64,000 nt of DNA, taken from NCBI GenBank assembly GCA_022614965.1, contig JAKEHO010000082.1, forward strand, positions 12,069-76,068, written 5' to 3'. Made by a program: the position numbers and the translations under genes. Positions 33,111 through 47,875 of the stretch are shown one piece after another (the first letter of the stretch is position 1; each line of letters starts with the position of its first letter). Below the pieces are notes generated by a model. The model worked only from the letters and a program-made list of their open reading frames with translations. It was not told the DNA's origin and made no database searches. The DNA comes from Gammaproteobacteria bacterium. Its GTDB lineage: Bacteria; Pseudomonadota; Gammaproteobacteria; JAKEHO01.

Positions 33111-35678
33111 ATGTCCGCGTCCGTGAAGACAGAGCCACAACACACCCCGGTGATGCAACAATACCTCCGCATCAAGGCGGAGCATCCCGATAAACTGCTC
33201 TTCTATCACATGGGCGACTTTTACGAATTGTTCTACGAAGATGCCCGCAAGGCCGCCCGGCTTCTCGACATCGCGCTCACGGCACGGGGGCAGTCAGCCG
33301 GGGAGCCGATCCCAATGGCCGGTGTGCCGGTGCACGCCCTAGACGCGTATCTCGCCAAGCTGGTGCGCTTGGGCGAGGCCGTAGTCATTTGTGAGCAGAT
33401 CGGCGATCCCGCAACCAGCAAAGGTCCCATAGAGCGCAAGGTGGTTCGCATTGTCACCCCGGGAACCATCACCGACGAGGCATTGCTTGACGATCGCGAG
33501 GACAACCTTCTAGCGGCAGTGGCTGTTGCAGGCGAGACCTTCGGTATCGCCGCCCTTGAACTCAGTAGCGGGCAGTTTCGTGTCATGGAAGTGCAAGGAA
33601 AAGAAGCGCTTAAGGGCGAACTCGAGCGCCTGCATCCCGTCGAACTCCTCATCAGTGAAGATCGGCGACACCTGGAGGACCTGAATTCCAGGCCGGGGCT
33701 GCGCCTCCAGCCACCCTGGTATTTCGACATCGACACGGCCCGGCGCACCCTGATCCGCCAGTTTGGAGTGCACGATCTATCAGGCTTTGGTTGTGAGTCG
33801 ATGAGCCTTGCGATTGGCGCGGCTGGCTGCCTGTTACAGTACGCCCTCAATACTCAGCAGACAGAACTCCCTCACATTCAGGGCCTGCGCGTGGAACGCC
33901 CAGACGAGGGCATCATCCTGGACGCAACGAGCCGCCGAAATCTTGAGCTCGATCGAAGCCTCATGGGGAGTGACCAGAATTCGCTTCGGAAGATCATGGA
34001 TACGACAGCGACGGCCATGGGCAGCCGGATGCTCCGGCGTTGGCTGAACCGCCCGCTGAGGGACCGGCAAACACTCCGGCTTCGACACCATGCCCTCGGC
34101 GCGCTCATGCCCGGGCAGCGTTACCAGGCCCTGCACCGGAACATCGATGCGGTGGGCGATATGGAACGGATACTCGCACGCATCGCGCTCAAGTCTGCTC
34201 GTCCACGCGATCTGGCCCAGCTCAGGAACTCACTTGGTGCGTTACCTCAACTCTGTGCGCTCTTAGGTGACATCGATAGCCCCTTGATCCAGTCGTTAGC
34301 AAATCAGGCGCGTGAATTCCCGGATCTCCATCGCCTTCTTACCGAGGCCATCGTCGAGACACCGCCCGTGCTGCTGCGCGATGGAGGCGTGATTGCATCG
34401 GGCTTCGACGCGGAGCTGGACGAGCTCCGTGAGCTTGCGAACGAGACCGGGACTGCGCTGGTCGCGCTGGAAGCCCGCGAGCGCGAACGCACAGGGATCG
34501 CCAACCTCAAGGTCGGTTACAACCGTGTACACGGCTATTACATCGAGGTGAGTCGCAGCCAGAGTCACCGAATGCCCCCTACACACACCCGCCGCCAGAC
34601 ACTCAAAGGTGCAGAACGATTCATCACGCCGGAGCTCAAGGCGTTTGAAGACAAAGTATTAAGTGCCCGTGAGCGCGCATTGGCCAAAGAAAAGTTCCTT
34701 TATGACGATCTTCTTGATCGCTTGATTCAACACCTGTCCACCCTGCAGGCATGTAGCGCCGCTCTGTCAGAACTGGATGTCCTGGTCGCCTTTGCGGAAC
34801 GGGCAGACACATTGAACCTCATTCCACCCGAGCTGACCCTGAGCCCGGGCCATTACATCGAGGCTGGCCGTCACCTGGTGGTAGAACACGGGTTGGGCGA
34901 GCCCTTCGTACCCAATGATCTGGAACTCACCGATGGGCGGCGAATGCTCATCATCACCGGCCCAAACATGGGGGGCAAGTCAACCTATATGCGCCAGGCT
35001 GCCCTCATCATGATACTCGCCCACATCGGGAGTTATGTCCCTGCTAGAAAGGCCATTATTGGTCCGGTAGACCGGATCTTCACCCGTATCGGGGCACTCG
35101 ACGATCTCGCGGGCGGGCGCTCCACTTTCATGGTCGAGATGACGGAGACGGCTAACATTCTTCACAACGCAACGCCTGAAAGCCTGGTGCTGATGGACGA
35201 GGTCGGCCGCGGGACCAGTACCTTTGACGGTCTGGCACTCGCCTGGGCCTCAGCTGAGTATTTGGCAAAGCAAGTCGGTGCCTTCACGCTCTTCGCAACC
35301 CATTACTTCGAACTGACGGCGTTGCCGACATTCGCTGACAATGTGGCAAATGTCCACCTGGATGCGATCGAACACGGCGATAAAATCGTGTTCTTACATG
35401 CAGTCAAGGAAGGTCCGGCCAACCGCAGCTACGGCTTGCAAGTGGCATTACTCGCGGGGCTGCCGCGCCCAGTTGTGGACCGTGCCAGGCGACGCCTGGA
35501 TGACCTGGAAGCGCGACAAGCGGTGCTGACCGAACCGGCGGAGGAGCGCCCAACCGATCTGTTCTCCCCTCGTGAACAAAATCCTGTCGCCGATGCGCTC
35601 AAACTGATCGATCCGAATTACCTCACGCCGTTTGAGGCGCTGGAGGCACTGTATCGGCTGCGCTCAATGCTAAAGTGA
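33111..35678 (+). CDS. mutS: DNA mismatch repair protein MutS
   Basis: [28 protein letters not shown]-terminus and Walker [13 protein letters not shown] 33111 is preferred to the track start at 33039. Confidence 0.95.
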
Positions 35679-35785
35679 TAAGGCCACCGGGCCCGTTACA
35701 TCGCGCCTGGGGTGGCTCGCTAAATCTCCTAAAGCGGCATAAAATGGAAAACAAAAGATGATGATAGGCTTAGGAAACTCGAGCA

Positions 35786-36109
35786 ATGACCTTTGTAGTA
35801 AAGGAAGCCTGCATTAAATGCAAATATACGGATTGCGTGGAAGTCTGCCCGGTTGATTGCTTTCACGAAGGCCCCAACATGCTGGTGATCGACCCCGATG
35901 AATGCATTGACTGCACACTTTGCGAGCCGGAATGTCCTGTCGATGCCATCTGTTCACAGGATGATTTAACCGAAGCCGAACAGCAGTTCCTGACGTTGAA
36001 TGCGGAACTCGCCAAGATCTGGCCAGGGATCAATCAGATGAAAGCCGCACCGCCGGACGCCGACGAATGGAAGGACGTTAAGGATAAGCTCCAGCACCTG
36101 CAGCGTTAA
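35786..36109 (+). CDS. fdxA: ferredoxin, FdxA type (7Fe)
   Basis: Cluster motifs [14 protein letters not shown] and [12 protein letters not shown]; 107 aa. Confidence 0.9.
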
Positions 36110-36181
36110 ACAACAACGCCTGACAGCGCACGAGAATGTGGGCCGTGCAACCCCCGCAACGGTTTTCATGGGTGGTCTCTG

Positions 36182-36694
36182 ATGCCAATTCAGACATGTT
36201 CAGTTCGGGTTCAGCACGGTGGGGGAAGTTGGGACGCGGGTCGTCCGGTAAACCGCCTACTCATTGTACTTGCCTTCTGTACAGGCTGTAGCGCCGTTTT
36301 GGCTGAGGACGTCCCTGTCTATAAGTGGGTTGACGAAAATGGCACCGTGCATTACGGCGATCGCCCCAAGGATACCGACGCCGAAAAGCTGGAGCTGGAT
36401 GCCGCTCCGGCCCCGGACGATGCGCTGAGTGCGCGAAGGGCGAAACAAGAGAAGCTCCTACGGATCATGGAAGAAGAGCGCCAGAGGGAAAGTGACAAGG
36501 CTGTCCAAGCGAAAGCAGAACAAGAGCAACAGAAGCAAATGTGCGCGACTGCAAAGGAGCGCCTTTCCCAATATGAGAACTCGCGGTATCTCTTTGAGGA
36601 AGATAAAGACGGCAATCGCCGCCGCCTGAGCTACGAGGAGCGGCAGCAGTTGGAGGACAACGCGAGGACTGCCATCGCTCGGTATTGCAAATAG
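36182..36694 (+). CDS. DUF4124 domain-containing periplasmic protein
   Basis: Signal-like LLIVLAFCTGCSAVLA, then VYKWVDENGTVHYGDRP (DUF4124 signature) and a charged coiled-coil tail. The exact start is uncertain. Confidence 0.65.
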   Translation: MPIQTCSVRVQHGGGSWDAGRPVNRLLIVLAFCTGCSAVLAEDVPVYKWVDENGTVHYGDRPKDTDAEKLELDAAPAPDDALSARRAKQEKLLRIMEEERQRESDKAVQAKAEQEQQKQMCATAKERLSQYENSRYLFEEDKDGNRRRLSYEERQQLEDNARTAIARYCK

Positions 36695-36757
36695 ACAATT
36701 TCCGCGGTGCCAGTATAGTATGGCTAACATCAGAAATTCATAAGAGTTTTACGCCTT

Positions 36758-39289
36758 ATGAAACGGACATTCTGGCAGCGTGACTGGTTTGCCGGTCTGG
36801 CTATCTCGATTGTTTTCCTGTTCATCGCCAACACCGGTTTCATCCGAAGCCTCGAACGTACGGCATATGACCTTGGCATTCGAGCGTCCTCGCATGATCC
36901 AGGGGACAAAGTCGCCATCATCGCAATCGATGATGAAAGCGTCGCCAATATTGGGCGATGGCCGTGGTCCCGTGATGTACTCGCCAAGATGATCGATGAG
37001 CTCGCAGGCAGCGGCGCAAAAGTGATTGGCAACACGGTGTTTATGTCTGAGCCGCAGATCGATCCTGGGCTTACCTACATTAATCAACTGATCGATTTTT
37101 ATACATCGTCCGGCCTCGCAAACGAACCGATTGAGCAGCTCGGGGAGATGGGAACCCTGTTGAACGATGCCCAAAGCGCACTGAACACAGACAAAAAACT
37201 CGCTGTTAGTATGAGAGAGGCGGGCGACGTCATCATGGCGATGCAATTCGTGCTCGGCCAACCACTCGGTAATCCCGACAAGGAGCTACCAGAGTTTGTC
37301 ACAAAATATGCGCTTCGGAACATCAGCTCCGGAAGCGGTGTCGGGCCGCGACCTGCATTAGCCGCCACCCCGCCTATCCAAGAACTCGGTAATGAAGCGA
37401 TCGGTATTGGCCATATCACCTTTCCTCTCGACTTTGATGGAGGTGTGCGCACGGAATCACTGGTGCTCGACTACTACGACCGTTTTTTCCCCTCCTTTTC
37501 ACTGTTGCTTGCGGCACAGAGTCTCAATCTAGGAATTGATGACATTCAGGTAACGCTCGGAGAGGGTATCAAACTCGGAAAGCTCAGTATCAAGACCGAT
37601 CCTTACTTGCAAATGAGACCCTTTTTCTACACCGATCGCGGGGATAAACCGGCGTTTCATGTGGATTCCTTTTTCGACGTGTACACCGACAAGATCCCGG
37701 CTGAGAAGTACCGGGATAAGATCGTGCTCATCGGCGCGACGGCCTTTGGCCTGGGTTCTCCGCAACTAACCCCTGTTAATTCTGCTATGGAGCCGGTTGT
37801 CACACTGGCCCACACCATCGCCAGCATCCTAAATGAAGATTTCTTCATCATCCCGGACTGGGGAGGGTTGGCGCGGATGGGGGCCTTCCTGGTGATTGCC
37901 TTGTATCTCATGTTCTTATTGCCAAGCCTCCGCGCAGGGATGGCAGCCGGGATCACCGCGGTGCTGCTCATCGCTCTTGTGCTCGGCGAGACCACATTTA
38001 TGGTTCGCGACGCCATGTGGTTAGAGCTGATGTGGCCTGCTAGTTTACTCTTCTTCGGGTATCTGCTGCTGACCACCAAACGCTATCTTGTCACGGAAAA
38101 GGGCAAGCTCCGCTCCGAGGCTGAATCGGCCGAGAGTAACCGGATGCTCGGCCTTGCCTTCCAGCAACAGGGCCAGCTGGATATGGCCTTTGAAAAATTC
38201 CGTAAATGTCCCCTTGACGACTCGATCATGGACCCACTGTACAACTTGGCGCTGGACTACGAGCGAAAGCGCCAGTTCAGCAAGGCCAACGCGACGTACA
38301 ACTACATGTCCCAATACGACCCCAATTTCCGAGACGTCAAGGAGCGAAGCCCTCGAGCAAAGGCGATGGAGGAGACCATCATGCTCGGCGGGCCGGGCTC
38401 CGGCCCAGCGGCTGGTACCCTGGTGCTGGATGTCGCCGGCGGCGTCGAAAAGCCCATGCTCGGCCGCTATCAAATCGAAAGGGAGCTCGGTAAAGGGGCC
38501 ATGGGGACCGTCTACCAGGGCAGGGACCCGAAGATCAACCGCGTCGTGGCGATTAAGACCCTGCCGCTCTCCCAGGAGTTTGAGGAAAATGAATTGGAGG
38601 CGGTGAAAACGCGTTTCTTCCGCGAGGCGGAGACGGCGGGTCGCCTGACGCATCCCCACATCGTGACGATTTACGATGCCGGCGAGGAGCACGATCTGGC
38701 CTATATTGCCATGGAGTTCCTCAAGGGCGAGGATTTGAGGCCATACACTAGTCGAGACAATCTGCTCCCCTTACGCACGGTCATCGATATCACCATCCAA
38801 GCGGCAGACGCACTGCATTACGCGCACTCGCAGAACGTGGTGCACCGTGATATAAAACCGGGCAACGTCATGTGGGAACGCGACACGGGAAACATCAAGC
38901 TAACGGATTTCGGCATCGCCCGGATTACCGACGCCAGCAAGACAAAGACCGGAATGGTCTTTGGCACCCCCTCCTACATGTCACCCGAGCAGCTTTCCGG
39001 CCAAAAGGTCGACGGGCGTTCAGATCTATTTTCGCTCGGCGTGATGCTATACCAGCTGATCTGTGGTTCGTTGCCATTTCAAGGTGATTCCATGGCGACA
39101 CTCATGTATAAGATCACGAATGAGCCGCATCCGAACATCGTGAACCGGCGACCCGAACTGGGCCAAGAAGCACCGCTCTTGGTACCCATTATCAATAAGG
39201 CGTTACAAAAGGCAGTGGAAGCACGCTACCAAACCGGTGGTGAACTGGCGAGGCACATGCGGACCTGCCTGCAGTCACTCACAAAGTGA
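36758..39289 (+). CDS. CHASE2 sensor domain-containing Hanks-type Ser/Thr protein kinase (CHASE2 - TM - TPR - kinase)
   Basis: N-terminal TM plus CHASE2 (IIAIDDESVANIGRWPWSRD), a TM cluster around aa 355-445, a TPR-like segment, and a C-terminal kinase (GAMGTVY..VAIK, HRDIKPGN, DFGIAR, GTPSYMSPEQ). Confidence 0.88.
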   Translation: MKRTFWQRDWFAGLAISIVFLFIANTGFIRSLERTAYDLGIRASSHDPGDKVAIIAIDDESVANIGRWPWSRDVLAKMIDELAGSGAKVIGNTVFMSEPQIDPGLTYINQLIDFYTSSGLANEPIEQLGEMGTLLNDAQSALNTDKKLAVSMREAGDVIMAMQFVLGQPLGNPDKELPEFVTKYALRNISSGSGVGPRPALAATPPIQELGNEAIGIGHITFPLDFDGGVRTESLVLDYYDRFFPSFSLLLAAQSLNLGIDDIQVTLGEGIKLGKLSIKTDPYLQMRPFFYTDRGDKPAFHVDSFFDVYTDKIPAEKYRDKIVLIGATAFGLGSPQLTPVNSAMEPVVTLAHTIASILNEDFFIIPDWGGLARMGAFLVIALYLMFLLPSLRAGMAAGITAVLLIALVLGETTFMVRDAMWLELMWPASLLFFGYLLLTTKRYLVTEKGKLRSEAESAESNRMLGLAFQQQGQLDMAFEKFRKCPLDDSIMDPLYNLALDYERKRQFSKANATYNYMSQYDPNFRDVKERSPRAKAMEETIMLGGPGSGPAAGTLVLDVAGGVEKPMLGRYQIERELGKGAMGTVYQGRDPKINRVVAIKTLPLSQEFEENELEAVKTRFFREAETAGRLTHPHIVTIYDAGEEHDLAYIAMEFLKGEDLRPYTSRDNLLPLRTVIDITIQAADALHYAHSQNVVHRDIKPGNVMWERDTGNIKLTDFGIARITDASKTKTGMVFGTPSYMSPEQLSGQKVDGRSDLFSLGVMLYQLICGSLPFQGDSMATLMYKITNEPHPNIVNRRPELGQEAPLLVPIINKALQKAVEARYQTGGELARHMRTCLQSLTK

Positions 39290-39295
39290 TTGGCT

Positions 39296-40120
39296 ATGGA
39301 CCTGACTAGCAAGCTTGAAATCGCGAACATCTCTCATGTCGGCAAGAAACGCCGGCATAACGAGGACAGCACGGTGAGCGACCCGAGTCTCGGACTGCTT
39401 GTGCTCGCAGATGGCATGGGGGGATATAGAGCGGGCGAGGTGGCAAGCAGCATTGCCGTGACGTCGATCATGAATGCCGTCAAAGGCCAGGTTGGAAATC
39501 TAAGACCCAATCGGCGGAGTGGCCCGGCCGGTTCGCACCCGGAATCTCTGCTGATCAAAGACGCCATCAGCCAGGCAAACTGGAATATCTACAAGATCGC
39601 CCGGGACGAACCACAGTGCCAAGGCATGGGAACGACGGTGGTGGTCAGCCTCTTCTATAATGATGAGATTACGATTGCCCATGTGGGCGATTCGAGGCTC
39701 TACCGGCTGCGTGGGGGCAAACTCCAGCAACTCACGACTGACCACTCGCTAATTCAAGAGCTTATCGACCGGGGCATGTTTACGCCTGAGGAAGCCGAGG
39801 TGTCGATGCCTAAGAATCTGGTCACCCGGGCGCTCGGGGTCAGAGCGGACGTCCAGGTGGACATTCAGAAGGGTCATGTCAGCCCCGGGGACATCTACCT
39901 GCTGTGTTCGGACGGCCTCAATGATATGGTAACTGATGAAGAAATTCGCTTAACCCTAAGTAAATATAGTGCTAATCTTGTACAGGCGGCAGGGGAATTG
40001 GTACAGCAAGCAAACGAAAAAGGAGGCAATGACAACATCTCCGTGATACTGGCGCGCCCCCTGGACCACTTTCCAGCACCGAGCAGCTTGTATCAGAGGG
40101 TATTTGGGCTATTCAGTTGA
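39296..40120 (+). CDS. PP2C-family Ser/Thr phosphatase
   Basis: LADGMGG, GTTVV, LLCSDGL and GGNDNIS motifs. Starts 6 nt after the kinase stop. Confidence 0.88.
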   Translation: MDLTSKLEIANISHVGKKRRHNEDSTVSDPSLGLLVLADGMGGYRAGEVASSIAVTSIMNAVKGQVGNLRPNRRSGPAGSHPESLLIKDAISQANWNIYKIARDEPQCQGMGTTVVVSLFYNDEITIAHVGDSRLYRLRGGKLQQLTTDHSLIQELIDRGMFTPEEAEVSMPKNLVTRALGVRADVQVDIQKGHVSPGDIYLLCSDGLNDMVTDEEIRLTLSKYSANLVQAAGELVQQANEKGGNDNISVILARPLDHFPAPSSLYQRVFGLFS

Positions 40121-40142
40121 CGTCAGTCGATAGGACAGTTCT

Positions 40143-40865
40143 ATGGCGAAGCTTATTCTGAGCCTGAATGGTGTGGTTCAAGGGGAGTTCGCGCTCGAGA
40201 AGGAACGCACCACAGTTGGGCGACGTCCCGATAACGACATCCAAATTGATAATTTGGCAGTTAGCGGAAAACACGCGCTGATCATTACGATCCTAGACGA
40301 CTCCTTCCTTGAAGACCTTGGCAGCACGAATGGCACCTATGTCAATGGGAAACTGATAAAGAAGCAGGCGCTGCGAAACGGTGACATACTCACCATTGGC
40401 AAGCATGAGCTTAAATATATAAACGAACACGCAACGGCAGATGACGAGCAGTTCGAAAAGACTCTGATCATTCGGCCGAGCTCGGTGTCGAGCGCTATTG
40501 CCGCCGCTCAAGCCGCTAAACAGGCTGGTGTGGCTCCAGCACCATCGACACCACCAGAATCAAAATCACAGCACAACGCTTCCATCATGCCGTTGGGATC
40601 GCTTACAGTCCTAAATGGCCCCATCGCCGGTAAGGAACTCGAACTCACCAAGGCGCTGATCACATTGGGCAAGCCAGGTGTGCAGGTGGCCGTTATCTCA
40701 CGTCGCCCACAAGGTTACTTCCTGACGCATATCGAAAGTGACGGTGATGGCCAGCGTTATCCCCTGATCAACGGTCAGCCGATTGGCCCCCGGGCCTATG
40801 CGTTGCGCAATAGCGACGTAATCGAATTGGCTGGGATCAAAATGGAATTCTCGCTAAACAAGTAG
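40143..40865 (+). CDS. FHA domain protein (canonical N-terminal FHA plus degenerate C-terminal FHA-like domain)
   Basis: N-terminal TVGRRPDNDIQIDNLAVSGKHALI...GSTNGTYVNG..GDILTIG, an Ala/Pro linker, and a second beta-rich domain lacking the Arg/Ser/His/Asn pThr-binding residues. Confidence 0.85.
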   Translation: MAKLILSLNGVVQGEFALEKERTTVGRRPDNDIQIDNLAVSGKHALIITILDDSFLEDLGSTNGTYVNGKLIKKQALRNGDILTIGKHELKYINEHATADDEQFEKTLIIRPSSVSSAIAAAQAAKQAGVAPAPSTPPESKSQHNASIMPLGSLTVLNGPIAGKELELTKALITLGKPGVQVAVISRRPQGYFLTHIESDGDGQRYPLINGQPIGPRAYALRNSDVIELAGIKMEFSLNK

Positions 40866-40935
40866 CAACAATTACATCGCCTCCGCACCAAAGCCAGCGA
40901 CCTGATCTCCTTACCGTCTTACTACACGAGACGGG

Positions 40936-43185
40936 CTAACCTTTGGTCGTGTAGGTAAACACGCCATTCCAGGCTACCTCAGGCGGATGTCTCCGAAAAT
41001 GGGCAACGCGTTTGATGTATAAGCTGTACAGGCCACGCTCAGGCGCTATCTTTTGTAAATTGAGAAACTGCAACTCGGCCCTATCCCAGTCCTCGGCACG
41101 GTAGTATTTCAAAGCCTGCGCATACAGGGTCATTTCATCGAGTGTGGTCTTGTCGATGTCGTTAATGAGCCCAATGGGCTCAAAGATCGCCACCGGCTCA
41201 TCCTTACCCATCACCCGCACCCGGTCGAGCTCGCGGTAGAAGTACTCCGGCACCGCCCCCTTGGTCGACGCGCTCACAATCAGCGGGACACCGTATTCTT
41301 TCGTGAGCCCTTCCAAGCGCGACCCCAAATTGACAGCATCTCCGATCACCGTATAGGCCATTCGAAACGCCGATCCCATGTTGCCTACGCGCATTACGCC
41401 CGTATTAATCCCGACCCCCACCCTGAGTGGAGGCCAGCCACGGGATCGGAATTCGTTCTGTAAGGAGTATGTGCGCTCAAGCAGCTCCATTCCAGCCATT
41501 AATGCGTGTCGCGCGTGCTCTGGATCTTCCACCGGAGCACCCCAGAATGCCATGATGGCATCGCCCATGTACTTATCAATAGTGCCCCGGTGTTTGTGGA
41601 TGATCTGGGTCATCGGCGTCAGAAACTCATTCATGAGCTGGGATAGATCCTTCGGAGTAAGGCCTTCAGAGAGGTTCGTAAAGTCGCGTACATCGGAAAA
41701 TAAAACGGTCAGTTCCCGGCTCTCCGCTTCGACTGAATAGGATGCCGGATCCCTACTCATCTCGTTGACCAGTTCCGGTGGTACGTATTGGCCAAAGAGC
41801 CCCATGATTTGGCGTTCCCTTCGTGTCTCCACGAAGAAACCATACGTCATATTGAGTAGGTACATCACGAGGATCATGATGACGCCCGAGGCGATCGGCA
41901 GGACCAGATTGGCATAGTGCCAAATTGCAAAATTGAAGCCGATGGAAATCACGGTCACGAGCAGTGTGACCAGCGTGGCCCAAAGAGGCGTCAATAGCGG
42001 CAGTATCAACGCCATCACGAGCCCGATGATGAGCAGGAGTATGAACTCCGCACCCAAGGTGTAGGCAGGCTTTTCTTTAATCGTCTGATCCAGTATCCCG
42101 GAGATGAGATTGGCATGGATCTCAACCCCAGGAAAGGCTTTCTGCACCGGGGTCGCCCTTAGATCCAGCAAGCCTGGAGCAGTGGCACCAACCAGTACGA
42201 CCGCGTTTTTTAGGATCTCGGGGGCTACACGCCCGTTCAGCACATCGGCTGCGGAGGCATAGGGAAAGCTTCCCTGCCTACCGCGATAGGGTACCAATGT
42301 CCGTATACGCCCATCGACGGGTACCAAGTGGTGACCGAGCTTTAGCCACTCAAGTCCTGGGTAGCGCTTATCCCATGGAAGGGTGTAGGCATACTGGGGC
42401 TCAACTTGGGCCACTCCAAGTATCACCCGCGCGACTTCAAGTGACAGGGAAGCGTAATAGGCGCCATCGTATTCGACGAGCATTGGCACCCGTCGGACGG
42501 TACCGTCCTCATCCACCCACGGATTGAAATGCCCCCCGCCGATGGCATTCAGTTGGAACTCGGCCAGGTTTCCTCCATAGCCTCCCGCCCTGATGAAGTC
42601 AATCTTTCTTCCTTTGAAACCGCCCTGCACAAATGTGGGGGACGGCAACGCACCACTCTTGGACACCTCTCCAGTGTCGTTCGGTTCGTTGTAATAGAAA
42701 CCCAGTATGACGGGCCGTCCCTTGATGCCCCCTGCAAACAGCCTGTCGTAATCGAGCTTTGGCCGAATACTTTCCAGCCGTGCGCGGTACTCCGGCAAAT
42801 CGCTAAATCTGTCGTTCGCAAGACCCTCGAGTACGTCTAGCCCTGAACTCCTGTCTGGCTCCGCGAAGACCAAGTCAAATGCCACAAGGGCGACGTGATA
42901 GTGATTAAAGAGCTGATCCAGGAAGCGCGCCATGCGGTCCCTGCTCCAGGGCCAGCGCCCTTCCTCGGCCAGACTCTTCTCATTGATGTCGACAATGACG
43001 ATACGGGGATCCTGTGAGTTAGGCATCGTAAATACGAGGCGCGCATCATAGGCGATGTTTTCCATGCGATCGATTAAGCGCCAGTGCAGCAGGCCGGACA
43101 CATGGAGGAGAAACATGACCACCACGAGGAGACCGATGATCACACGCACCAAGTGGCGCTTGAGGAGTTGCAGGAAGGTCTTCAT
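40936..43185 (-). CDS. CHASE2 sensor domain-containing class III adenylate/guanylate cyclase
   Basis: N-terminal TM plus CHASE2 (VIVDINEKSLAEEGRWPWSRD), a TM cluster, and a cyclase domain (LFSDVRDFT, KYMGDAIMAFWGAP, VIGDAVNLGSRLE). Confidence 0.9.
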   Translation of the reverse strand: MKTFLQLLKRHLVRVIIGLLVVVMFLLHVSGLLHWRLIDRMENIAYDARLVFTMPNSQDPRIVIVDINEKSLAEEGRWPWSRDRMARFLDQLFNHYHVALVAFDLVFAEPDRSSGLDVLEGLANDRFSDLPEYRARLESIRPKLDYDRLFAGGIKGRPVILGFYYNEPNDTGEVSKSGALPSPTFVQGGFKGRKIDFIRAGGYGGNLAEFQLNAIGGGHFNPWVDEDGTVRRVPMLVEYDGAYYASLSLEVARVILGVAQVEPQYAYTLPWDKRYPGLEWLKLGHHLVPVDGRIRTLVPYRGRQGSFPYASAADVLNGRVAPEILKNAVVLVGATAPGLLDLRATPVQKAFPGVEIHANLISGILDQTIKEKPAYTLGAEFILLLIIGLVMALILPLLTPLWATLVTLLVTVISIGFNFAIWHYANLVLPIASGVIMILVMYLLNMTYGFFVETRRERQIMGLFGQYVPPELVNEMSRDPASYSVEAESRELTVLFSDVRDFTNLSEGLTPKDLSQLMNEFLTPMTQIIHKHRGTIDKYMGDAIMAFWGAPVEDPEHARHALMAGMELLERTYSLQNEFRSRGWPPLRVGVGINTGVMRVGNMGSAFRMAYTVIGDAVNLGSRLEGLTKEYGVPLIVSASTKGAVPEYFYRELDRVRVMGKDEPVAIFEPIGLINDIDKTTLDEMTLYAQALKYYRAEDWDRAELQFLNLQKIAPERGLYSLYIKRVAHFRRHPPEVAWNGVFTYTTKG

Positions 43186-43285
43186 TCTTTTTTATTAGTT
43201 TGAGAAGCGCGCGAATCCGCTAACCCACCGGTTGAGGCACAATGCATCGCCTGCACCCGCGTAGCTCACACCTGTCAAATACAGC

Positions 43286-43891
43286 TTATTGCGACGGGCT
43301 GACTGCACGTTGTGCAACGGTCAGAAATTCGTCGAATAACTGCAGCAACGCTTTATTGAACGCTCTCACTGTCGCCTCGAATGAGTCACCGTCGACCGCG
43401 ACTTGCGTAGAGTAACGGTTCAACAATATGGGTCGATCTCCGCCTGGACGATCTACGCGGAGCTCCAAGGCCACAGCCACTTGTATGCTATCAGGCCGTT
43501 TACGTTGCTCGAATTGTGTGATCTTACCTGATATGACTAATTCAGCCGCAGCATTATTCTCAGTGGCAACGACGGCCGCGGCGTTGGCATCTCTGAGGTA
43601 GGAAACGAGATGATCCCGCACGAGGCGGCCTGGACTGTCTTGCCAAAAATGGTAACGGTACTGCTGCAGTTCCACCGACTGCGCATCATTTGTAAAGAGC
43701 ATTGCCCGCTCGATGTACACCCCATTGGCATTAAATTGCTTCACGAGCACCATCTCTTCCGCGAGTGGTGTACTCATCACATGAACAGCTTGCGGCTCGG
43801 GCAAGCGATAGAAATGATCAGCGGGCACTGGCGATTGCCGCGCGCAAGCACTGAGGCCCGCAGTCAGAACGACGAGCATCCAGCTGCGCAC
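43286..43891 (-). CDS. ABC-transport auxiliary lipoprotein (DUF330/PqiC-like)
   Basis: Lipobox LTAGLSAC; about 200 aa; overlaps the MlaD-like stop by 1 nt (GTG start). Confidence 0.7.
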   Translation of the reverse strand: MRSWMLVVLTAGLSACARQSPVPADHFYRLPEPQAVHVMSTPLAEEMVLVKQFNANGVYIERAMLFTNDAQSVELQQYRYHFWQDSPGRLVRDHLVSYLRDANAAAVVATENNAAAELVISGKITQFEQRKRPDSIQVAVALELRVDRPGGDRPILLNRYSTQVAVDGDSFEATVRAFNKALLQLFDEFLTVAQRAVSPSQ

Positions 43892-44904
43892 TACTCCCTG
43901 CCCCCTTCTTCCGGGGCGCCTCCTTCAGCCGGTGGTGCCGCACCGCGGAGCAACAGTGCCGGATCCTCTCTGATCTCACGGGTGAACTCATGGACATTCC
44001 GGGCACTGCCTTCCAGGTGGTATGCCACAGCATCAATATGTTCAGACACAACTTGCAGTGATTTCTGTAGATCAGCCACGGACTGTCGAATGTCATCCTG
44101 GTTCTCAGTTACCAGTGCGTCCATATCCAACAACAACTTATCCATGAGCGCCCTTGTGCCGTTAATCTGCGCCATCAGGCCACTGAGTTCCCTCGATGCG
44201 CCCTCGATATTCTTCAGAACCTCTGCCACCTGTTCCCGGTTCTCCTCACTGAGCAGCTCCTTCAACCTATCGGCGCTGTTGTTGAGCTTAACCAGCAACG
44301 AGCGCGTATCCTCGATGAGTTCGGGATGGTCCGCCAGCGCATTCAGCTTATCGAAAAAAGGACGTACGCTGTCGTCAATGAGCGCGCTAAGTTCCTCGGC
44401 AAGCCCGTTAATGCGTCCATTCAAGTTCTCGAGTACCGGCTCGATCCCCTTCTGCGAGAGCTGATGAAAGTCGTCTGCGATCTCAGCAACTGCATCAAAT
44501 AGGCTAACGCCTTCTTGCCCTCGGATCGCATCACCTGGACTAAGCAATGTCTCGCTCTTGCCTTCGCGGATGTTGATGGAGACCGCAGATATCAGGCCTG
44601 ATGCCACGATCCTCGCGACGCTGTCCGTCGGGATGTGCCAATCTTTACGTACGCTGACTTCGACCCGATAGTTTGTCTTACCCCCGCTCCGCCCGGGGAT
44701 AATGTCCTCCACCTGCCCAATCTGAAAGCCTTCGTAGAAAACAGGCGTCCCTTGCTTGATGCCGGATACATTGCTGTAGTTGACAAAGTACGTGTCGGTG
44801 GGCCCCGCCCGTCCGGTGATCTGGTACAGCAAAACCAGCAAGGCCACTGCCATCGCCAGCACAAAGACCCCTACCACCAAATAGTTAATATGTTCGCGTT
44901 TCAT
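43891..44904 (-). CDS. MCE/MlaD-family substrate-binding protein
   Basis: N-terminal TM (INYLVVGVFVLAMAVALLVLL), an MCE domain (..VSGIKQGTPVFYEGFQIGQVEDI..) and a long helical C-terminus. Start set at ATG 44904. Confidence 0.8.
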   Translation of the reverse strand: MKREHINYLVVGVFVLAMAVALLVLLYQITGRAGPTDTYFVNYSNVSGIKQGTPVFYEGFQIGQVEDIIPGRSGGKTNYRVEVSVRKDWHIPTDSVARIVASGLISAVSINIREGKSETLLSPGDAIRGQEGVSLFDAVAEIADDFHQLSQKGIEPVLENLNGRINGLAEELSALIDDSVRPFFDKLNALADHPELIEDTRSLLVKLNNSADRLKELLSEENREQVAEVLKNIEGASRELSGLMAQINGTRALMDKLLLDMDALVTENQDDIRQSVADLQKSLQVVSEHIDAVAYHLEGSARNVHEFTREIREDPALLLRGAAPPAEGGAPEEGGRE

Positions 44905-44914
44905 CGCCCTGTGC

Positions 44915-45724
44915 CTAGTCCCGGGTGAGGCGTTGCAGGTAGTCGTCAGGGTCGATTTCTTTCGTGCCTGGCCGGCGATGGAGCATCGCCTGAATGCGCT
45001 CATTCTCCGAGTTGCGAACTTCATCAACAGTTCCCGTCATGAGTACGCATCCCTTTTCCAAAATCATGATCCTGTCCGCAATCTTACAAGCGCTGCTCAG
45101 CTCATGAGTCACCACAACGATGGTCATTTGCAGTGCATCCCTGAGGCGCAAGATTAGCTCATCCAGCTCCGCAGCCACGACCGGGTCGAGCCCGGCTGAC
45201 GGCTCATCGAAAAACAGCAGTTTCGGATCCATTATGATGGCGCGCGCTAGCGCCGCCCTCTTCAGCATGCCACCGGACAATTGCGACGGCATGAGATGCT
45301 CGAAGCCTCCGAGATTCACGAGCTCCAGTTTCATCCGCGTCATGATTTGCATCGTCTTCTCATCTAATTTGGTATGCTCGCGTAACGGGAGCCGGATATT
45401 CTCACCCACGGTCATGGAGCTAAACATTGCGCCGCCCTGAAATGCGACCCCGATGTTCTTGCGCAACTCGTGCAGTTCTGCGGCGCTTGCCCGGGCGATG
45501 TCCAATCCTAACAGCCGGACGCATCCGCTGGTTGGGCGATGCAACCCCAGTAGGTAACTTAACAAAGTGCTTTTCCCCGAGCCGCTGCGGCCCATGATGG
45601 CCATGATCTCGCCCGGACTTACAGTCATGTTCACTCCACGCAAGATCTGAACCGCGCCATAATGCGTTACTAAGTCTTGTACCTCCATGACGGGATCATC
45701 TACGCTTGTAAGGACGGAGGCCAT
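44915..45724 (-). CDS. ABC transporter ATP-binding protein (MlaF-like)
   Basis: Walker A GRSGSGKST, signature LSGGMLKRAALARA, Walker B LLFFDEP. Confidence 0.9.
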   Translation of the reverse strand: MASVLTSVDDPVMEVQDLVTHYGAVQILRGVNMTVSPGEIMAIMGRSGSGKSTLLSYLLGLHRPTSGCVRLLGLDIARASAAELHELRKNIGVAFQGGAMFSSMTVGENIRLPLREHTKLDEKTMQIMTRMKLELVNLGGFEHLMPSQLSGGMLKRAALARAIIMDPKLLFFDEPSAGLDPVVAAELDELILRLRDALQMTIVVVTHELSSACKIADRIMILEKGCVLMTGTVDEVRNSENERIQAMLHRRPGTKEIDPDDYLQRLTRD

Positions 45725-45727
45725 GTT

Positions 45728-46540
45728 TCAACGATTAAGAAAGTACGTAAATACCATGTCGGCGAGTACGATATAAGAGATGGATAACACAACGGCTCGA
45801 GTGGTTGCCCGCCCAACACCCTCCGCCCCACCAGTCACACTGAACCCATTGCTTACGCCAACCAGTGCAATGATGCCAGCAAACACAACACTCTTGATGA
45901 GCCCTTGCATGATGTCATCCGCCGCCAATACGTCCAGCGTTTGCTGCAGGTATGCCTCGACACCGAGCCCGAGCTCAACGGTGCTGTAGACCGCCCCACC
46001 AAATAAGGCGGCGAGATCCGAGAAAAAGGTTAACGTTGGCACCATAATTAACATGGCCAGCAACGCCGGCGACACCAGATAACGCACAGGATTAATCCCC
46101 ATTACACGCAGCGCATCGATCTCCTGTGAGACTTGCATGGTTCCGATCTGCGCCGCCAACGCAGAACCCGACCGGCCGGCTATAAGCACGCCAGTAATTA
46201 ATGGACCAAACTCACGGGTCACTGAGAGCGCGATCCCGATCACTACCTGAGACTCGGCACCAAATATTCTCAGCGTATGGATCCCTTGGATCGCCAACAT
46301 CACGCCGACAGCAAACGATAATACGAACACGATAGGTATCGCCCCGATTCCTATCGTCATCATTTGGGAGAAGATGCTGGGTAGCCGGACCGGCTGGTGT
46401 CTCACGGATCCAAAGACGACCCAATAAAGGCTCTCTACAAGCAGCGCGGCAACATAGCCGCATTCCTCAACGGCCTGGACTGCGGTACGGCCCAGTTGTT
46501 GTACAGACAACAGCGGATGCTTGAGCTCTGGGCTAGCCAT
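45728..46540 (-). CDS. ABC transporter permease (MlaE-like)
   Basis: Polytopic MlaE-type permease. Start set at ATG 46540 (MASPELKHP..), which overlaps the STAS gene stop by 8 nt. Confidence 0.85.
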   Translation of the reverse strand: MASPELKHPLLSVQQLGRTAVQAVEECGYVAALLVESLYWVVFGSVRHQPVRLPSIFSQMMTIGIGAIPIVFVLSFAVGVMLAIQGIHTLRIFGAESQVVIGIALSVTREFGPLITGVLIAGRSGSALAAQIGTMQVSQEIDALRVMGINPVRYLVSPALLAMLIMVPTLTFFSDLAALFGGAVYSTVELGLGVEAYLQQTLDVLAADDIMQGLIKSVVFAGIIALVGVSNGFSVTGGAEGVGRATTRAVVLSISYIVLADMVFTYFLNR

Positions 46541-46871
46541 CCTCCCGAAGTCGCTCCTCGACGGTGGCGTGGATGGGGAACACCTTATCGAGACGCGCGA
46601 GCTGGATGACACTCAAGGCGGCATCACTGACCCCGACGAGACCGAATTTCAATTCTTTCTTCCTGGCAGTCTGATAACCTTCTACCAGACTCGCCACACC
46701 GGAACTATCGATGTAGGTCACTTGAGAGAGTTCAACGAGCACATTACGACCACCCTTCAAGAACTCCAATATAACCTTACGTGCATCAACCGAACACGAC
46801 AGATCCACATCCCCCATCAACTCCACGACCGTGTAGCGCCCTTCTTTGCGTGTCTTGTATTTCATAGCCAT
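46533..46871 (-). CDS. STAS domain protein, RsbV/SpoIIAA-type anti-sigma-factor antagonist
   Basis: 112 aa with the phosphorylatable-serine motif YIDSSGVASL. SD GAAGGA lies upstream. Confidence 0.85.
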   Translation of the reverse strand: MAMKYKTRKEGRYTVVELMGDVDLSCSVDARKVILEFLKGGRNVLVELSQVTYIDSSGVASLVEGYQTARKKELKFGLVGVSDAALSVIQLARLDKVFPIHATVEERLREDG

Positions 46872-46882
46872 TGTTCCTTCTG

Positions 46883-47299
46883 TTACTCTATCTTCTTCAC
46901 CATCTCCAGGCAGTTGCCGCTGCCATCGGCGAGTTGCCCAAATGAACAGTCGTCCATGATCTCGCGCATGAAATAGGTTCCCAAACCACCTGGACGAACG
47001 TCGCTTAAATCCCGCGGCTTGATTCTGGCTGGATCAACTGGTTTGGCAAAGTCGGTCAAGCGAAAAATAATATCTTTGCCATTATTGAGTATTTCCAGGA
47101 CAATTTCACCCGACGGATCTCCTCTATATGCGTGTTGAATAATGTTTGTACACGCCTCGTTGACTGCGATCACAAGCTGAGATGTCACTGTGGAACAGCA
47201 TCCGACCCTCTCGGCAGCATTTCTAACCTCCGCGCGCACCGTAGCCAGCCTAGTTGGATCAGCAGGGAAACGGAGCTCCAGCAGGCGTTCTTCGCTCAT
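46883..47299 (-). CDS. RsbW/SpoIIAB-type anti-sigma regulatory serine kinase (HATPase_c)
   Basis: N-box NEACTNIIQHAY and G-box RPGGLGTYFMREIMD; 138 aa; 11 nt upstream of the STAS gene. Confidence 0.8.
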   Translation of the reverse strand: MSEERLLELRFPADPTRLATVRAEVRNAAERVGCCSTVTSQLVIAVNEACTNIIQHAYRGDPSGEIVLEILNNGKDIIFRLTDFAKPVDPARIKPRDLSDVRPGGLGTYFMREIMDDCSFGQLADGSGNCLEMVKKIE

Positions 47300-47373
47300 T
47301 GTGGCTCATCGTCGAACAAAGCCAAGGTGAATGGGGACGCAGTTAAGTGTTCTCCATTCCGATCGATGGCGCA

Positions 47374-47814
47374 TCAGGCGATCCTCTTCACACACTCTAA
47401 ATAAGCTGTCTCATCCGGCATGCTCTCCCCGCGCTCGGCCGCCCATAATACGTCCGCAAGGCACTCCATCATTCGGTGCTCAAGGTCTTGGGGACTCGAA
47501 AACCTAGGCAGAAGTGAATGATAGATCGCCACAATTCCTGGTGGCCGGTCTGTGGCCAACTGCTCGTGCACAGCAATATGCATACTCATGTGCAAAAACG
47601 GGTTTGGTTCGCCACGCTCGGGTGGAAAATCCTCTCGCAACGCATGCTCTTCGTCTTCCAGCAGGCTATGATACTCGGGATGCTCTCGAATGATCCCCGC
47701 AACCACTTGCTCCAATGGCTCCATCGGCCCACGTTCCTTCTGTTTCTTCCAGACCTCTAAGAAAAAACGCCGAGCGGACTCGCGATCCTGTACAAACACC
47801 CTGTTGCCCTTCAA
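47374..47814 (-). CDS. DUF1841 family protein
   Basis: ..PMEPLEQVVAGIIREHPEYHSLLED..NPFLHMSMHIAVHEQL..HRMMECL.. matches the DUF1841 pattern as I recall it. Confidence 0.7.
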   Translation of the reverse strand: MKGNRVFVQDRESARRFFLEVWKKQKERGPMEPLEQVVAGIIREHPEYHSLLEDEEHALREDFPPERGEPNPFLHMSMHIAVHEQLATDRPPGIVAIYHSLLPRFSSPQDLEHRMMECLADVLWAAERGESMPDETAYLECVKRIA

Positions 47815-47875
47815 ACCAGATTCTTAGAACAAATTCCCTGCAAACACAACCGAAACGCCGGCTTAACCTCTGCGG

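What the first reader, a model, noticed from the sequence alone, without database searches (positions are those of the whole stretch)
36182..47299. An 11-kb supercluster as a candidate integrated envelope-sensing and lipid-transport system
One contiguous block holds two CHASE2 sensors, a Hanks kinase, a PP2C, FHA readers, an RsbW-type kinase, a phosphorylatable STAS protein, an MCE-type ABC transporter with its lipoprotein, and a secreted DUF4124 protein. No unrelated genes are interspersed. The block is flanked by housekeeping genes (fdxA on one side; DUF1841 and nth on the other).

PP2C phosphatases are the canonical STAS~P phosphatases in partner-switching networks. FHA domains read pThr written by Hanks kinases.

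Inference: these components could form one circuit that tunes outer-membrane lipid trafficking. This is a hypothesis built only from gene adjacency.
Basis: inference. Interest (0 to 1): 0.6.

Follow-up and report, generated by a model that had tools for sequence, protein, structure and literature searches.

The report
Two signalling cassettes, side by side
The 11-kb block is real, but comparison with about 170 related loci shows two separately conserved gene cassettes (a kinase-switched envelope lipid transporter and a CHASE2 kinase/phosphatase/FHA/cAMP-cyclase set) that sit side by side only in one bacterial clade, not one proven circuit.

Summary
All twelve genes are present as described (Pfam, NCBIfam).

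Neighbourhood analysis splits the block into two cassettes:
- A: RsbW-type kinase, phosphorylatable STAS (IDSSG), MlaE, MlaF, long MlaD and a PqiC-like lipoprotein. This is an Mpc/Mla-type transporter with a partner switch.
- B: DUF4124, CHASE2-Hanks kinase, Stp1-type PP2C and an FHA protein, plus the convergent CHASE2 adenylate cyclase.

A and B are adjacent only in one gammaproteobacterial clade (49 distinct loci). There they always lie between nth-DUF1841 and fdxA-mutS, so the adjacency looks inherited. Within that clade the transporter genes, the cyclase and the kinase each come and go independently (at least 5, 6 and 4 changes).

Outside the clade, 70 A loci carry no CHASE2 gene nearby, and B occurs without A. 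Genome-level co-occurrence is at background (28% against 22%).

About 9 in 10 A loci carry their own GAF- or HDOD-SpoIIE phosphatase directly upstream of RsbW. This weakens the proposed PP2C-to-STAS link. The window is the only locus of its clade that lacks that gene, so cross-talk here is not excluded.

This scan has noted both cassettes before on other DNA.

The parts
36182..36694 (+). DUF4124 protein with a probable signal peptide (hydrophobic stretch LLIVLAFCTGCSAVLA). It lies between fdxA and the kinase operon.
   Evidence: Pfam PF13511, E=1.2e-11. It is kept in relatives even where the kinase gene is gone.
36758..39289 (+). CHASE2-TM-TPR-Hanks Ser/Thr kinase (843 aa). Catalytic motifs are intact: VAIK, HRDIKPGN, DFG, GTPSYMSPE.
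   Evidence: Pfam Pkinase 2.1e-55 and CHASE2 1.9e-44. Motifs read from the translation.
39290..40120 (+). PP2C phosphatase of the Stp1/IreP family (276 aa). Its start abuts the kinase stop.
   Evidence: NCBIfam NF033484, 255.8 bits against a cut-off of 230. Pfam PP2C_2 2.4e-14; SpoIIE only 24.6 bits, below its cut-off.
40143..40865 (+). FHA protein (240 aa): a canonical N-terminal FHA domain, an Ala/Pro-rich linker, and a conserved all-beta C-terminal domain.
   Evidence: Pfam FHA 9.5e-23. The C-terminal half is invariant at many positions in 26 orthologues. AF2 pLDDT is 70-85 for residues 150-240, and Foldseek matches FHA folds such as GarA/OdhI. The model as a whole has low confidence.
40936..43185 (-). 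CHASE2-TM-class III adenylate cyclase (749 aa), convergent with the FHA gene (70 nt between the stops).
   Evidence: Pfam CHASE2 6.9e-57 and Guanylate_cyc 2.8e-19. The closest solved structures are adenylate cyclases (P. aeruginosa CyaB 3r5g, E=3e-33).
43286..43891 (-). PqiC-like (ABC_trans_aux) outer-membrane lipoprotein with lipobox LSAC.
   Evidence: Pfam PF03886 5.1e-12. NCBIfam pqiC match is weak.
43891..44904 (-). MlaD-like protein (337 aa): one MCE domain and a long helical C-terminal part, as in Mpc-type systems.
   Evidence: Pfam MlaD 6.6e-14 plus coiled-coil-type hits. NCBIfam MCE family. Compare MpcD, 331 aa, in PMC12436622.
44915..45724 (-). MlaF-like ABC ATPase.
   Evidence: Pfam ABC_tran 1e-32. 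MlaF is the best NCBIfam match.
45728..46540 (-). MlaE-family permease. Its start overlaps the STAS stop by 8 nt.
   Evidence: Pfam MlaE 6.3e-72. NCBIfam TIGR00056 scores above its cut-off. Junction read.
46533..46871 (-). Single-domain STAS protein (112 aa) with the invariant motif Y53-I-D-S56-S-G58. Ser56 aligns with the phospho-serine of anti-sigma antagonists.
   Evidence: Pfam STAS 5.9e-16. NCBIfam anti-sigma factor antagonist scores above its cut-off. The motif is invariant in 51 orthologues and in alignment A1. PDB matches: TM1442 5.8e-9, MlaB 0.08-0.2.
46883..47299 (-). RsbW-type serine kinase (138 aa). The N-box (NEAxxNxxxHAY) and G2 box (RPGGLG) are conserved. The G1 box keeps its Asp but not the glycines (DFAKP).
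   Evidence: Pfam HATPase_c_2 3.1e-30. Best PDB match is B. subtilis RsbW 6m36, 1.4e-12. Conservation checked in 53 sequences. It is the only strong HATPase_c_2 hit in the genome.
47300..47373 (.). 74-nt spacer between DUF1841 and RsbW. This is where 47 of 48 assessable loci of the clade carry a gene of about 430 aa for a GAF-SpoIIE phosphatase. The gene is missing here.

Best explanation
The block is two autonomous cassettes that an ancestor of one clade of uncultured Gammaproteobacteria placed side by side. The site lies between rnfE-nth-DUF1841 and fdxA-mutS.

Cassette A (47299 to 43286, minus strand) is an envelope-spanning Mpc/Mla-type lipid ABC transporter: MlaE, MlaF, a long MlaD and a PqiC-like lipoprotein. 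Its MlaB-like STAS subunit is a separate protein paired with an RsbW-type kinase. Inferred mechanism:
- Unphosphorylated STAS binds MlaF and permits transport.
- RsbW phosphorylates Ser56, which releases STAS and shuts the pump.
- In relatives, a GAF- or HDOD-SpoIIE phosphatase encoded just upstream resets the switch.
- In this genome that phosphatase gene has been deleted. The reset enzyme is therefore unknown: it could be one of three SpoIIE-type genes elsewhere in the genome, the neighbouring PP2C, or nothing.

Cassette B has two parts: 36182 to 40865 on the plus strand, and the cyclase at 43185 to 40936 on the minus strand. It is a threonine-phosphorylation triad (CHASE2 Hanks kinase, Stp1-type PP2C, FHA reader) travelling with a paralogous CHASE2 adenylate cyclase. 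Inferred mechanism: a periplasmic or membrane cue sensed by CHASE2 sets both phospho-threonine and cAMP levels.

What is shown: gene content, motif conservation, and the conservation and separability of the cassettes. What is inferred: every biochemical step.
For: (1) Cassette A is a unit.
- RsbW orthologues occur in 56 of 301 sampled genomes of the class.
- Of 119 distinct RsbW+STAS loci, 98 have MlaE or MlaF next to STAS. Four of the rest end at a contig edge.
- In family f32 the whole array, phosphatase through lipoprotein, sits on another contig. The old site keeps nth-DUF1841-cyclase-FHA-PP2C-kinase (L005/L053 against L015/L014).

(2) The cyclase belongs with B. In more distant genomes the order is kinase>PP2C>FHA>cyclase on one strand, with no Mla genes (L024, L026, L028, L029, L031, L032, L036, L037, L042).

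(3) Adjacency of A and B is confined to one clade (SH-aLRT 93; one further full-block locus, L012, falls outside it on a weakly supported branch) and always has the same housekeeping flanks.

(4) The parts are lost independently within that clade.
- Presence/absence patterns (Mla, cyclase, kinase): 1,1,1 in 19 loci; 0,1,1 in 6; 1,0,0 in 5; 0,0,1 in 4. L150 keeps A with no B at all.
- The fewest changes on the tree are 5, 6 and 4.
- Loss of Mla does not track loss of the cyclase or the kinase.

(5) There is no co-occurrence outside the clade. The B-type PP2C orthologue is found in 11 of 40 A-positive genomes and 54 of 247 A-negative genomes, and always on a different contig.

(6) A has its own phosphatase. 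A GAF-SpoIIE or HDOD-SpoIIE gene lies directly upstream of RsbW in 106 of 119 loci, and is sometimes fused in frame with RsbW.

(7) The genome has exactly three STAS domains, one per MlaE paralogue: MlaB in mlaFEDCB, a STAS fused to MlaE in an Mpc-type operon, and this free STAS. This fits a MlaB-like role for the free STAS.

(8) Kolich et al. 2020 (PMC7367683) showed that MlaB binds MlaF through the face that carries Thr52, and that a phosphomimetic weakens binding. They left phosphoregulation as an open question.
Against: - Adjacency has been kept in at least 19 species-level genomes across several families. That could reflect selection rather than inertia.
- In this clade the cyclase gene follows cassette A on the same strand (48-100 nt after the lipoprotein gene). 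It may therefore be co-transcribed with A.
- In 15 loci the transporter genes are gone, yet phosphatase, RsbW and STAS stay intact next to FHA-PP2C. The switch therefore has some use beyond the adjacent pump.
- The window lacks the cognate phosphatase, which leaves a vacancy that the neighbouring PP2C could fill.
- No biochemical evidence exists for any step.
Confidence: 0.7

Rival explanations
1. One integrated circuit. CHASE2-sensed envelope signals act through the Hanks kinase, PP2C and FHA protein on the RsbW/STAS switch. For example, the PP2C would dephosphorylate STAS~P and so tune the lipid transporter. In this genus the link would have become necessary once the cognate GAF-SpoIIE phosphatase was lost.
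For: - The window is the only one of 48 assessable loci of its clade without the GAF-SpoIIE gene. RsbW and STAS nevertheless keep all conserved motifs and an ordinary branch length.
- FHA and PP2C remain next to the switch in every assessable locus that has lost the transporter.
- An earlier, unchecked note of this scan (e1-4949127) reports a CHASE2-fused phosphatase inside the same kind of switch-Mla operon in another phylum.
Against: - The PP2C is an Stp1/IreP-family enzyme by a curated cut-off.
- All other loci with the full block also carry the dedicated SpoIIE phosphatase.
- A and B do not co-occur outside the clade.
- Losses of the Mla genes and of the CHASE2 genes are uncorrelated.
- The genome has three other SpoIIE-type phosphatases that could serve instead.
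Confidence: 0.12
2. In this clade the CHASE2 adenylate cyclase is functionally part of cassette A. It would be transcribed by read-through from the transporter operon, so that cAMP production is tied to expression of the pump or to its switch. The kinase operon would be a mere neighbour.
For: - Same strand and short gaps: 100 nt after the lipoprotein gene here and 48 nt in L011. Where the Mla genes are deleted, the cyclase follows STAS after 76-250 nt.
- No convincing terminator or promoter was found in the 100-nt spacer. The scan was no better than shuffled sequence.
Against: - Where cassette A moved away, the cyclase stayed behind with the kinase operon (L014/L015).
- In distant genomes the cyclase sits downstream of FHA on the kinase strand.
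- The cyclase and the kinase tend to be lost together, though only about 1.8 of 3 independent pairs go the same way, so the test is underpowered.
Confidence: 0.1
3. In this genome the switch is an orphan stuck in one state. Without its phosphatase, STAS is constitutively phosphorylated, or RsbW is inactive, and cassette A is on its way to being lost. The adjacency has no functional meaning.
For: - The phosphatase gene is deleted cleanly and leaves a 74-nt spacer.
- Related lineages show frequent loss of parts of the block.
- The G1 box of the kinase lacks its glycines.
Against: - The G1 variant (DFAxP) is shared by the whole family, so it is not a sign of decay here.
- All ORFs are intact, with translational coupling.
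- The end branch of the window in the RsbW+STAS tree (0.23) is close to the median of 0.19.
- Eight other loci also lack an adjacent phosphatase.
Confidence: 0.08

Closest known systems
Brucella abortus MpcEFDA, the 'chimeric Mla-Pqi' trans-envelope lipid transporter (PMC12436622)
   Same: MlaE-type permease, MlaF-type ATPase, an MCE protein of about 330 aa with a long C-terminal needle, and a PqiC-like lipoprotein as the last gene. A STAS module is attached to the transporter. There is no MlaC or MlaA in the operon.
   Different: In Mpc the STAS domain is fused to the N-terminus of MpcE, and no kinase is described. Here STAS is a free protein with an invariant DSSG phospho-site and an RsbW-type kinase gene in front of it. 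The same genome also has a true Mpc-type operon with a fused STAS on contig C74.
E. coli MlaFEDB with its STAS subunit MlaB (PDB 6XBD, 6XGY; PMC7367683, PMC5016091)
   Same: A STAS protein is encoded together with MlaF and MlaE. MlaB binds MlaF through the face that bears the conserved Ser/Thr, and a phosphomimetic at that position weakens binding.
   Different: MlaB has no known kinase, and its phosphorylation was never shown. By sequence the window's STAS is closer to anti-sigma antagonists (TM1442, 5.8e-9) than to MlaB (0.08-0.2). The transporter here is the bridge type (long MlaD plus a PqiC-like lipoprotein), not the MlaC shuttle type.
Partner-switching modules RsbU/RsbV/RsbW and SpoIIE/SpoIIAA/SpoIIAB of Bacillus subtilis
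   Same: An HATPase_c_2 serine kinase, a STAS substrate with the DSSG serine, and, in relatives, a SpoIIE-family phosphatase with a sensor domain. The gene order is phosphatase-kinase-STAS.
   Different: There is no sigma factor in or next to the module, and the genes that follow are a transporter. In this window the phosphatase gene is missing.
Hanks kinase / PP2C / FHA triads (mycobacterial PknB-PstP-GarA/FhaA; type VI secretion PpkA-PppA-Fha1)
   Same: A membrane Hanks kinase, an Stp1/PstP-type PP2C and an FHA reader lie in one operon. The FHA domain is closest to FhaB/OdhI/GarA.
   Different: The sensor domain is CHASE2, not PASTA or vWA. The FHA protein has a second conserved beta domain. 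The triad travels with a CHASE2 adenylate cyclase, and no substrate is known.
CHASE2 receptor adenylate cyclases (Sinorhizobium meliloti CyaD1/CyaD2/CyaK). It was not checked in a paper here.
   Same: The architecture CHASE2-TM-class III cyclase.
   Different: Here the cyclase is paired with a paralogous CHASE2 kinase operon. The ligand is unknown.

Membership tests
Partner-switching system (RsbW/RsbV/RsbU type) | Serine kinase of the HATPase_c_2 (anti-sigma factor) family | tested here: met
   PF13581 E=3.1e-30. Best PDB match is RsbW 6m36. The N-box and G2 box are conserved in 53 sequences; the G1 box keeps only its Asp.
Partner-switching system (RsbW/RsbV/RsbU type) | Single-domain STAS protein with the conserved phospho-acceptor serine | tested here: met
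   PF01740, and TIGR00377 above its cut-off. I54-D55-S56-S57-G58 is invariant. Phosphorylation itself was not tested.
Partner-switching system (RsbW/RsbV/RsbU type) | Cognate PPM phosphatase of the SpoIIE/RsbU branch encoded with the pair | tested here: not met
   The window has only 74 nt between DUF1841 and RsbW and no remnant of the gene. The feature is met in 106 of 119 related loci, as GAF-SpoIIE or HDOD-SpoIIE.
Partner-switching system (RsbW/RsbV/RsbU type) | A sigma factor, or another defined output protein, bound by the kinase | tested here: not met
   No sigma-factor domain occurs in any gene from 33039 to 50669. The presumed output is MlaF, by inference only.
Mla/Mpc-type MCE lipid ABC transporter | MlaE permease, MlaF ATPase and an MCE-domain protein in one operon | tested here: met
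   PF02405 6.3e-72, PF00005 1e-32 and PF02470 6.6e-14. Spacers are 3 and 10 nt.
Mla/Mpc-type MCE lipid ABC transporter | Mpc subtype: long MCE protein plus a PqiC-like lipoprotein, with no MlaC or MlaA | tested here: met
   The MlaD-like protein is 337 aa with a helical tail. PF03886 lipoprotein with a lipobox. Compared with PMC12436622.
Mla/Mpc-type MCE lipid ABC transporter | STAS partner that binds the ATPase | not testable with these tools
   Only indirect support: each of the three MlaE systems of the genome has exactly one STAS domain. Binding needs an experiment or a multimer model.
Hanks kinase / PP2C / FHA phospho-threonine triad | Active Hanks kinase, Stp1/PstP-type PP2C and FHA protein in one operon | tested here: met
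   PF00069 2.1e-55 with catalytic motifs. NF033484 255.8 bits against a cut-off of 230. PF00498 9.5e-23. Spacers are 0 and 22 nt.
Class III adenylate cyclase with CHASE2 sensor | CHASE2 domain, membrane helices and a cyclase homology domain with metal and substrate residues | tested here: met
   PF05226 6.9e-57 and PF00211 2.8e-19. The nearest solved chains are adenylate cyclases. The Lys (DKYMGD) and Asp (VIGDAVN) typical of adenine specificity were read from the sequence. Activity was not tested.
One functional gene cluster (whole 11-kb block as a unit) | The parts co-occur and stay adjacent in unrelated genomic contexts | tested here: not met
   Adjacency is found only within one clade and one chromosomal frame. 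Seventy A loci have no CHASE2 gene nearby. B occurs without A. Co-occurrence is 28% against 22%.

The most novel reading that the evidence does not exclude
In this genus the dedicated GAF-SpoIIE phosphatase of the STAS switch was lost, and the neighbouring CHASE2-kinase/Stp1-PP2C/FHA set took over control of STAS phosphorylation. A periplasmic CHASE2 signal would then gate an envelope lipid transporter. This would be a natural rewiring between a eukaryote-like Ser/Thr pathway and a partner switch.
Probability: 0.1. Interest if true: 0.75.

Novelty: new variant of a known kind. Interest (0 to 1): 0.4.

Why it matters
Whether Mla-type lipid transporters are switched by phosphorylation of their STAS subunit was raised as an open question in 2020 (PMC7367683). 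Cassette A is a natural system in which that can be tested with four purified proteins.

The present analysis adds three things:
- The apparent 'supercluster' should not be read as one machine. This saves effort on mutant designs that assume so.
- The clade is a natural deletion series: transporter, cyclase, kinase and phosphatase are each missing in some members. It can be used to ask which parts depend on which.
- Two observations are not explained by the simple model. The switch survives without its transporter in 15 loci, and the window has lost the phosphatase.

Neither cassette has been studied experimentally, as far as the searchable literature shows.

Tried and rejected
- Search for relocated MlaEFD genes in the genomes that lack them at the locus: the genome search closed, so this was not done.
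- Whether one of the genome's own SpoIIE-type phosphatases (C30 399 aa, C104 321 aa, C72 320 aa) is the relocated orthologue of the missing gene: rejected. Identity is only about 25%, confined to the catalytic domain.
- Whether the 320-aa 'MEVWGGN' SpoIIE paralogues are the general partner of RsbW: rejected. They occur in only 8 of 301 genomes, although 5 of the 7 other carriers have a detected RsbW.
- Promoter and terminator scan: no more sites than in shuffled sequence, so it was not used.
- Literature: no paper in the library joins CHASE2, FHA and PP2C, or partner switching with Mla. The absence covers this library only.
- AF2 model of the FHA protein: mean pLDDT 59, so only the C-terminal domain is usable. 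The FHA-fold reading of that domain stays tentative.
- The same-genus genome G001 matches the block only from mutS into mlaE and then its contig ends. It says nothing about RsbW, STAS or the phosphatase in the genus.
- The long 'upstream ORFs' in L083 and L065 look like wrong-frame artefacts by their composition and were ignored.

Full report
**1. What is there**

Plus strand, after fdxA (35786-36109):
- DUF4124 (36182-36694)
- an 843-aa CHASE2-TM-TPR-Hanks kinase (36758-39289)
- a 276-aa PP2C that starts right after the kinase stop (39290-40120)
- a 240-aa FHA protein (40143-40865)

Minus strand, after rnfE, nth and DUF1841:
- a 138-aa HATPase_c_2 (RsbW-like) kinase (47299-46883)
- a 112-aa STAS protein (46871-46533)
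- MlaE (46540-45728)
- MlaF (45724-44915)
- a 337-aa MlaD-like MCE protein (44904-43891)
- a PqiC-like lipoprotein (43891-43286)
- after a 100-nt gap, a 749-aa CHASE2-class III cyclase (43185-40936)

The cyclase gene ends 70 nt from the FHA stop. Spacers within RsbW-to-lipoprotein are 11, -8, 3, 10 and -1 nt.

**2. The genome**

The window lies in a 2.3-Mb, 119-contig, 87%-complete assembly.

It has three MlaE paralogues and exactly three STAS domains, one beside each:
- a canonical mlaFEDCB operon with MlaB, next to murA (contig C72)
- an Mpc-type operon whose MlaE carries an N-terminal STAS-like extension (C74)
- the window's free STAS

The window's RsbW is the only strong HATPase_c_2 hit in the genome.

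The transporter type matches the 'chimeric Mla-Pqi' MpcEFDA system of Brucella (PMC12436622): a long MCE protein and a PqiC-like lipoprotein, with no MlaC.

**3. Do the parts travel together?**

I used three samples.

(i) A fixed draw of 301 genomes of the same class was searched with RsbW, the cyclase, the PP2C and the SpoIIE family.

(ii) Neighbourhoods of 13-20 kb were fetched around 40 cyclase orthologues and 45 RsbW orthologues. They were scored by tblastn with all window proteins.

(iii) The best 80 of at least 591 loci in species genomes that encode this STAS subfamily were fetched with 10-kb flanks.
- Almost all are uncultured Gammaproteobacteria.
- Those with a finer name are Thiohalobacter, Thiogranum, Sulfuriflexus, Acidiferrobacteraceae, Ca. 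Thiodiazotropha and Ca. Endoriftia.

After removal of duplicates there are 119 distinct RsbW+STAS loci.

**4. Cassette A**

Outside the window's clade there are 70 distinct loci.
- 64 have MlaE or MlaF directly after STAS.
- 48 also have the MlaD-like and lipoprotein genes.
- 4 of the other 6 stop at a contig end.
- None has a CHASE2 gene in its flanks.

So RsbW-STAS-MlaE-MlaF-MlaD-lipoprotein is a unit. A variant order, RsbW-STAS-MlaF-MlaE, also exists.

The SpoIIE family search showed something the window does not have. A SpoIIE-type phosphatase gene lies immediately upstream of RsbW, on the same strand, in most genomes.
- ORF extraction and Pfam show two architectures: GAF-SpoIIE (about 430 aa) and HDOD-SpoIIE (about 567 aa).
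- In G032, G058, G232 and G270 the phosphatase and RsbW share one open frame.
- Overall, 106 of 119 loci have such a gene.

The canonical cassette is therefore a self-contained partner switch (phosphatase, kinase, STAS) joined to the transporter.

**5. Cassette B**

Full-length cyclase orthologues are common in the class.
- In the more distant ones, the kinase, PP2C and FHA genes lie upstream of the cyclase on the same strand, with no Mla genes (L024, L026, L028, L029, L031, L032, L036, L037, L042).
- Many other cyclase loci have no kinase, PP2C or FHA orthologue within the fetched flanks.
- In family f32 the site reads nth-DUF1841-cyclase-FHA-PP2C-kinase (L014, L015). The complete cassette A sits on another contig (L005, L053).

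The cyclase therefore belongs with the kinase operon, and cassette A moves as one piece.

**6. The juxtaposition**

All but one of the loci in which A and B are neighbours fall in one clade of the RsbW+STAS tree: 48 rows, SH-aLRT 93. One more, L012, falls on a weakly supported branch. All have the same frame, rnfE-nth-DUF1841 ... (DUF4124)-fdxA-mutS.

Of the 49 distinct loci treated as this clade:
- 19 have everything, including the window.
- 6 lack the Mla genes but keep the cyclase and kinase.
- 5 keep Mla but lack both CHASE2 genes.
- 4 lack Mla and the cyclase.
- L150 keeps cassette A and has no cassette B at all.

The deletions are clean. For example, STAS is followed after 71-250 nt by the cyclase gene or by the convergent FHA gene.

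The fewest changes on a careful tree are 5 for Mla, 6 for the cyclase and 4 for the kinase.
- In independent pairs that differ in Mla, the cyclase and the kinase mostly do not differ.
- The cyclase and the kinase tend to go together, but there are few pairs and no significance.

The tree rests on 246 columns and has many weak forks, so these counts are approximate.

**7. Genome-level profile**

Outside the syntenic clade, an orthologue of the B-type PP2C (E below 1e-60) occurs in:
- 11 of 40 genomes with cassette A
- 54 of 247 genomes without it

The odds ratio is 1.36 and Fisher p is 0.42. Related genomes are not independent, so this is descriptive only. In the 11 genomes with both, the two genes lie on different contigs.

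**8. The proposed bridge**

The window's PP2C scores 255.8 bits against NCBIfam's Stp1/IreP equivalog (cut-off 230). It scores below the Pfam SpoIIE cut-off. It is thus the type that partners Hanks kinases. Cassette A normally brings its own SpoIIE enzyme, including in every other locus with the full block.

The window is the exception. It is the only one of 48 assessable loci of its clade without the GAF-SpoIIE gene.
- Only 74 nt separate DUF1841 and RsbW, and there is no remnant of the gene.
- No orthologue exists elsewhere in the assembly. The best match is 25% identity to a TM-SpoIIE protein on C30.
- The genome does have three SpoIIE-type genes.
- RsbW and STAS look healthy.

Who resets STAS~P here is open. 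The neighbouring PP2C is one candidate among several.

**9. Mechanism**

The mechanism is as set out under the best explanation. The extra detail for cassette A is the STAS phospho-site.
- The invariant motif is Y53-I-D-S56-S-G58. It aligns with the phospho-serine motif of the anti-sigma antagonist TM1442.
- Kolich et al. placed the equivalent MlaB residue at the centre of the MlaF interface. They showed that a phosphomimetic weakens binding, and they called phosphoregulation an open question.

The inference follows from this. STAS is the MlaB-like activator of MlaF, RsbW turns it off, and a SpoIIE phosphatase turns it on in response to its GAF or HDOD input.

For cassette B, the nearest solved relatives of the cyclase domain are adenylate cyclases. 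None of the steps in either cassette has been tested.

**10. What remains odd**

The phosphatase-RsbW-STAS trio stays intact and slowly evolving in 15 loci without the adjacent transporter genes. The switch therefore has another use or acts in trans. The only constant neighbours there are FHA and PP2C. This keeps a small probability alive for cross-talk.

**11. Relation to earlier notes of this scan**

After my own analysis, look-ups showed that both cassettes had been noted before on other DNA.
- The switch-Mla operon appears in 24 findings.
- The CHASE2 kinase/PP2C/FHA/cyclase cassette appears in 56 findings.

They agree with what I found independently (preceded them). One note, which I did not check, reports a CHASE2-fused phosphatase inside a switch-Mla operon.

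**12. Verdict**

The two sub-links are supported. The single integrated circuit is not supported by comparative genomics and is at best a minority possibility for this genome.

Novelty is a new variant of known kinds. Interest is moderate, mainly for the natural deletion series and the missing phosphatase.

Noticed in passing
Own genome, contigs C72 (about 15461-18600) and C74 (8713-12391): The genome has three MlaE systems, each with exactly one STAS domain. They are a canonical mlaFEDCB operon next to murA, an Mpc-type operon with STAS fused to MlaE (403-aa ORF), and the window's free STAS with its kinase.
   Followed up: partly
Own genome, C72:35449-36411 (+) and C104:55097-56062 (-): Two paralogous SpoIIE-type phosphatases of about 320 aa, with an N-terminal 'MEVWGGNE' motif and no sensor domain. 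The type is rare in the class (8 of 301 genomes). Five of the seven other carriers have a detected RsbW orthologue. The remaining two are G166 and the same-genus G001, whose contig ends before the switch.
   Followed up: partly
Loci L005 (G032), L013 (G058), L018 (G232), L012 (G270): The GAF-SpoIIE phosphatase and the RsbW kinase lie in one open frame of 569-610 aa. This appears to be a phosphatase-kinase fusion protein.
   Followed up: no
Loci L007, L060, L066, L068, L069, L077, L079, L138, L165: Variant of cassette A with the order RsbW-STAS-MlaF-MlaE. Its MlaE is only about 30-35% identical to the window's, and there is no detectable MlaD or lipoprotein orthologue.
   Followed up: no
window 40590-40862 (FHA protein residues 150-240): The C-terminal half of the FHA protein is as conserved as the FHA domain itself (many invariant positions in 26 orthologues). 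It models as an all-beta domain with FHA-fold matches. It has GK instead of GR and no S-x-x-H motif. The model has low confidence overall.
   Followed up: partly
Locus L126: The CHASE2 cyclase gene sits upstream, between nth and DUF1841, instead of downstream of STAS. This is a local rearrangement within the same frame.
   Followed up: no
Loci L065 and L067: A SpoIIE-type phosphatase gene lies downstream of the lipoprotein gene instead of upstream of RsbW.
   Followed up: no
Earlier notes of this scan say the CHASE2 kinase/cyclase cassette travels with HD-GYP and cNMP-sensor genes in other lineages. I did not examine it.
   Followed up: no
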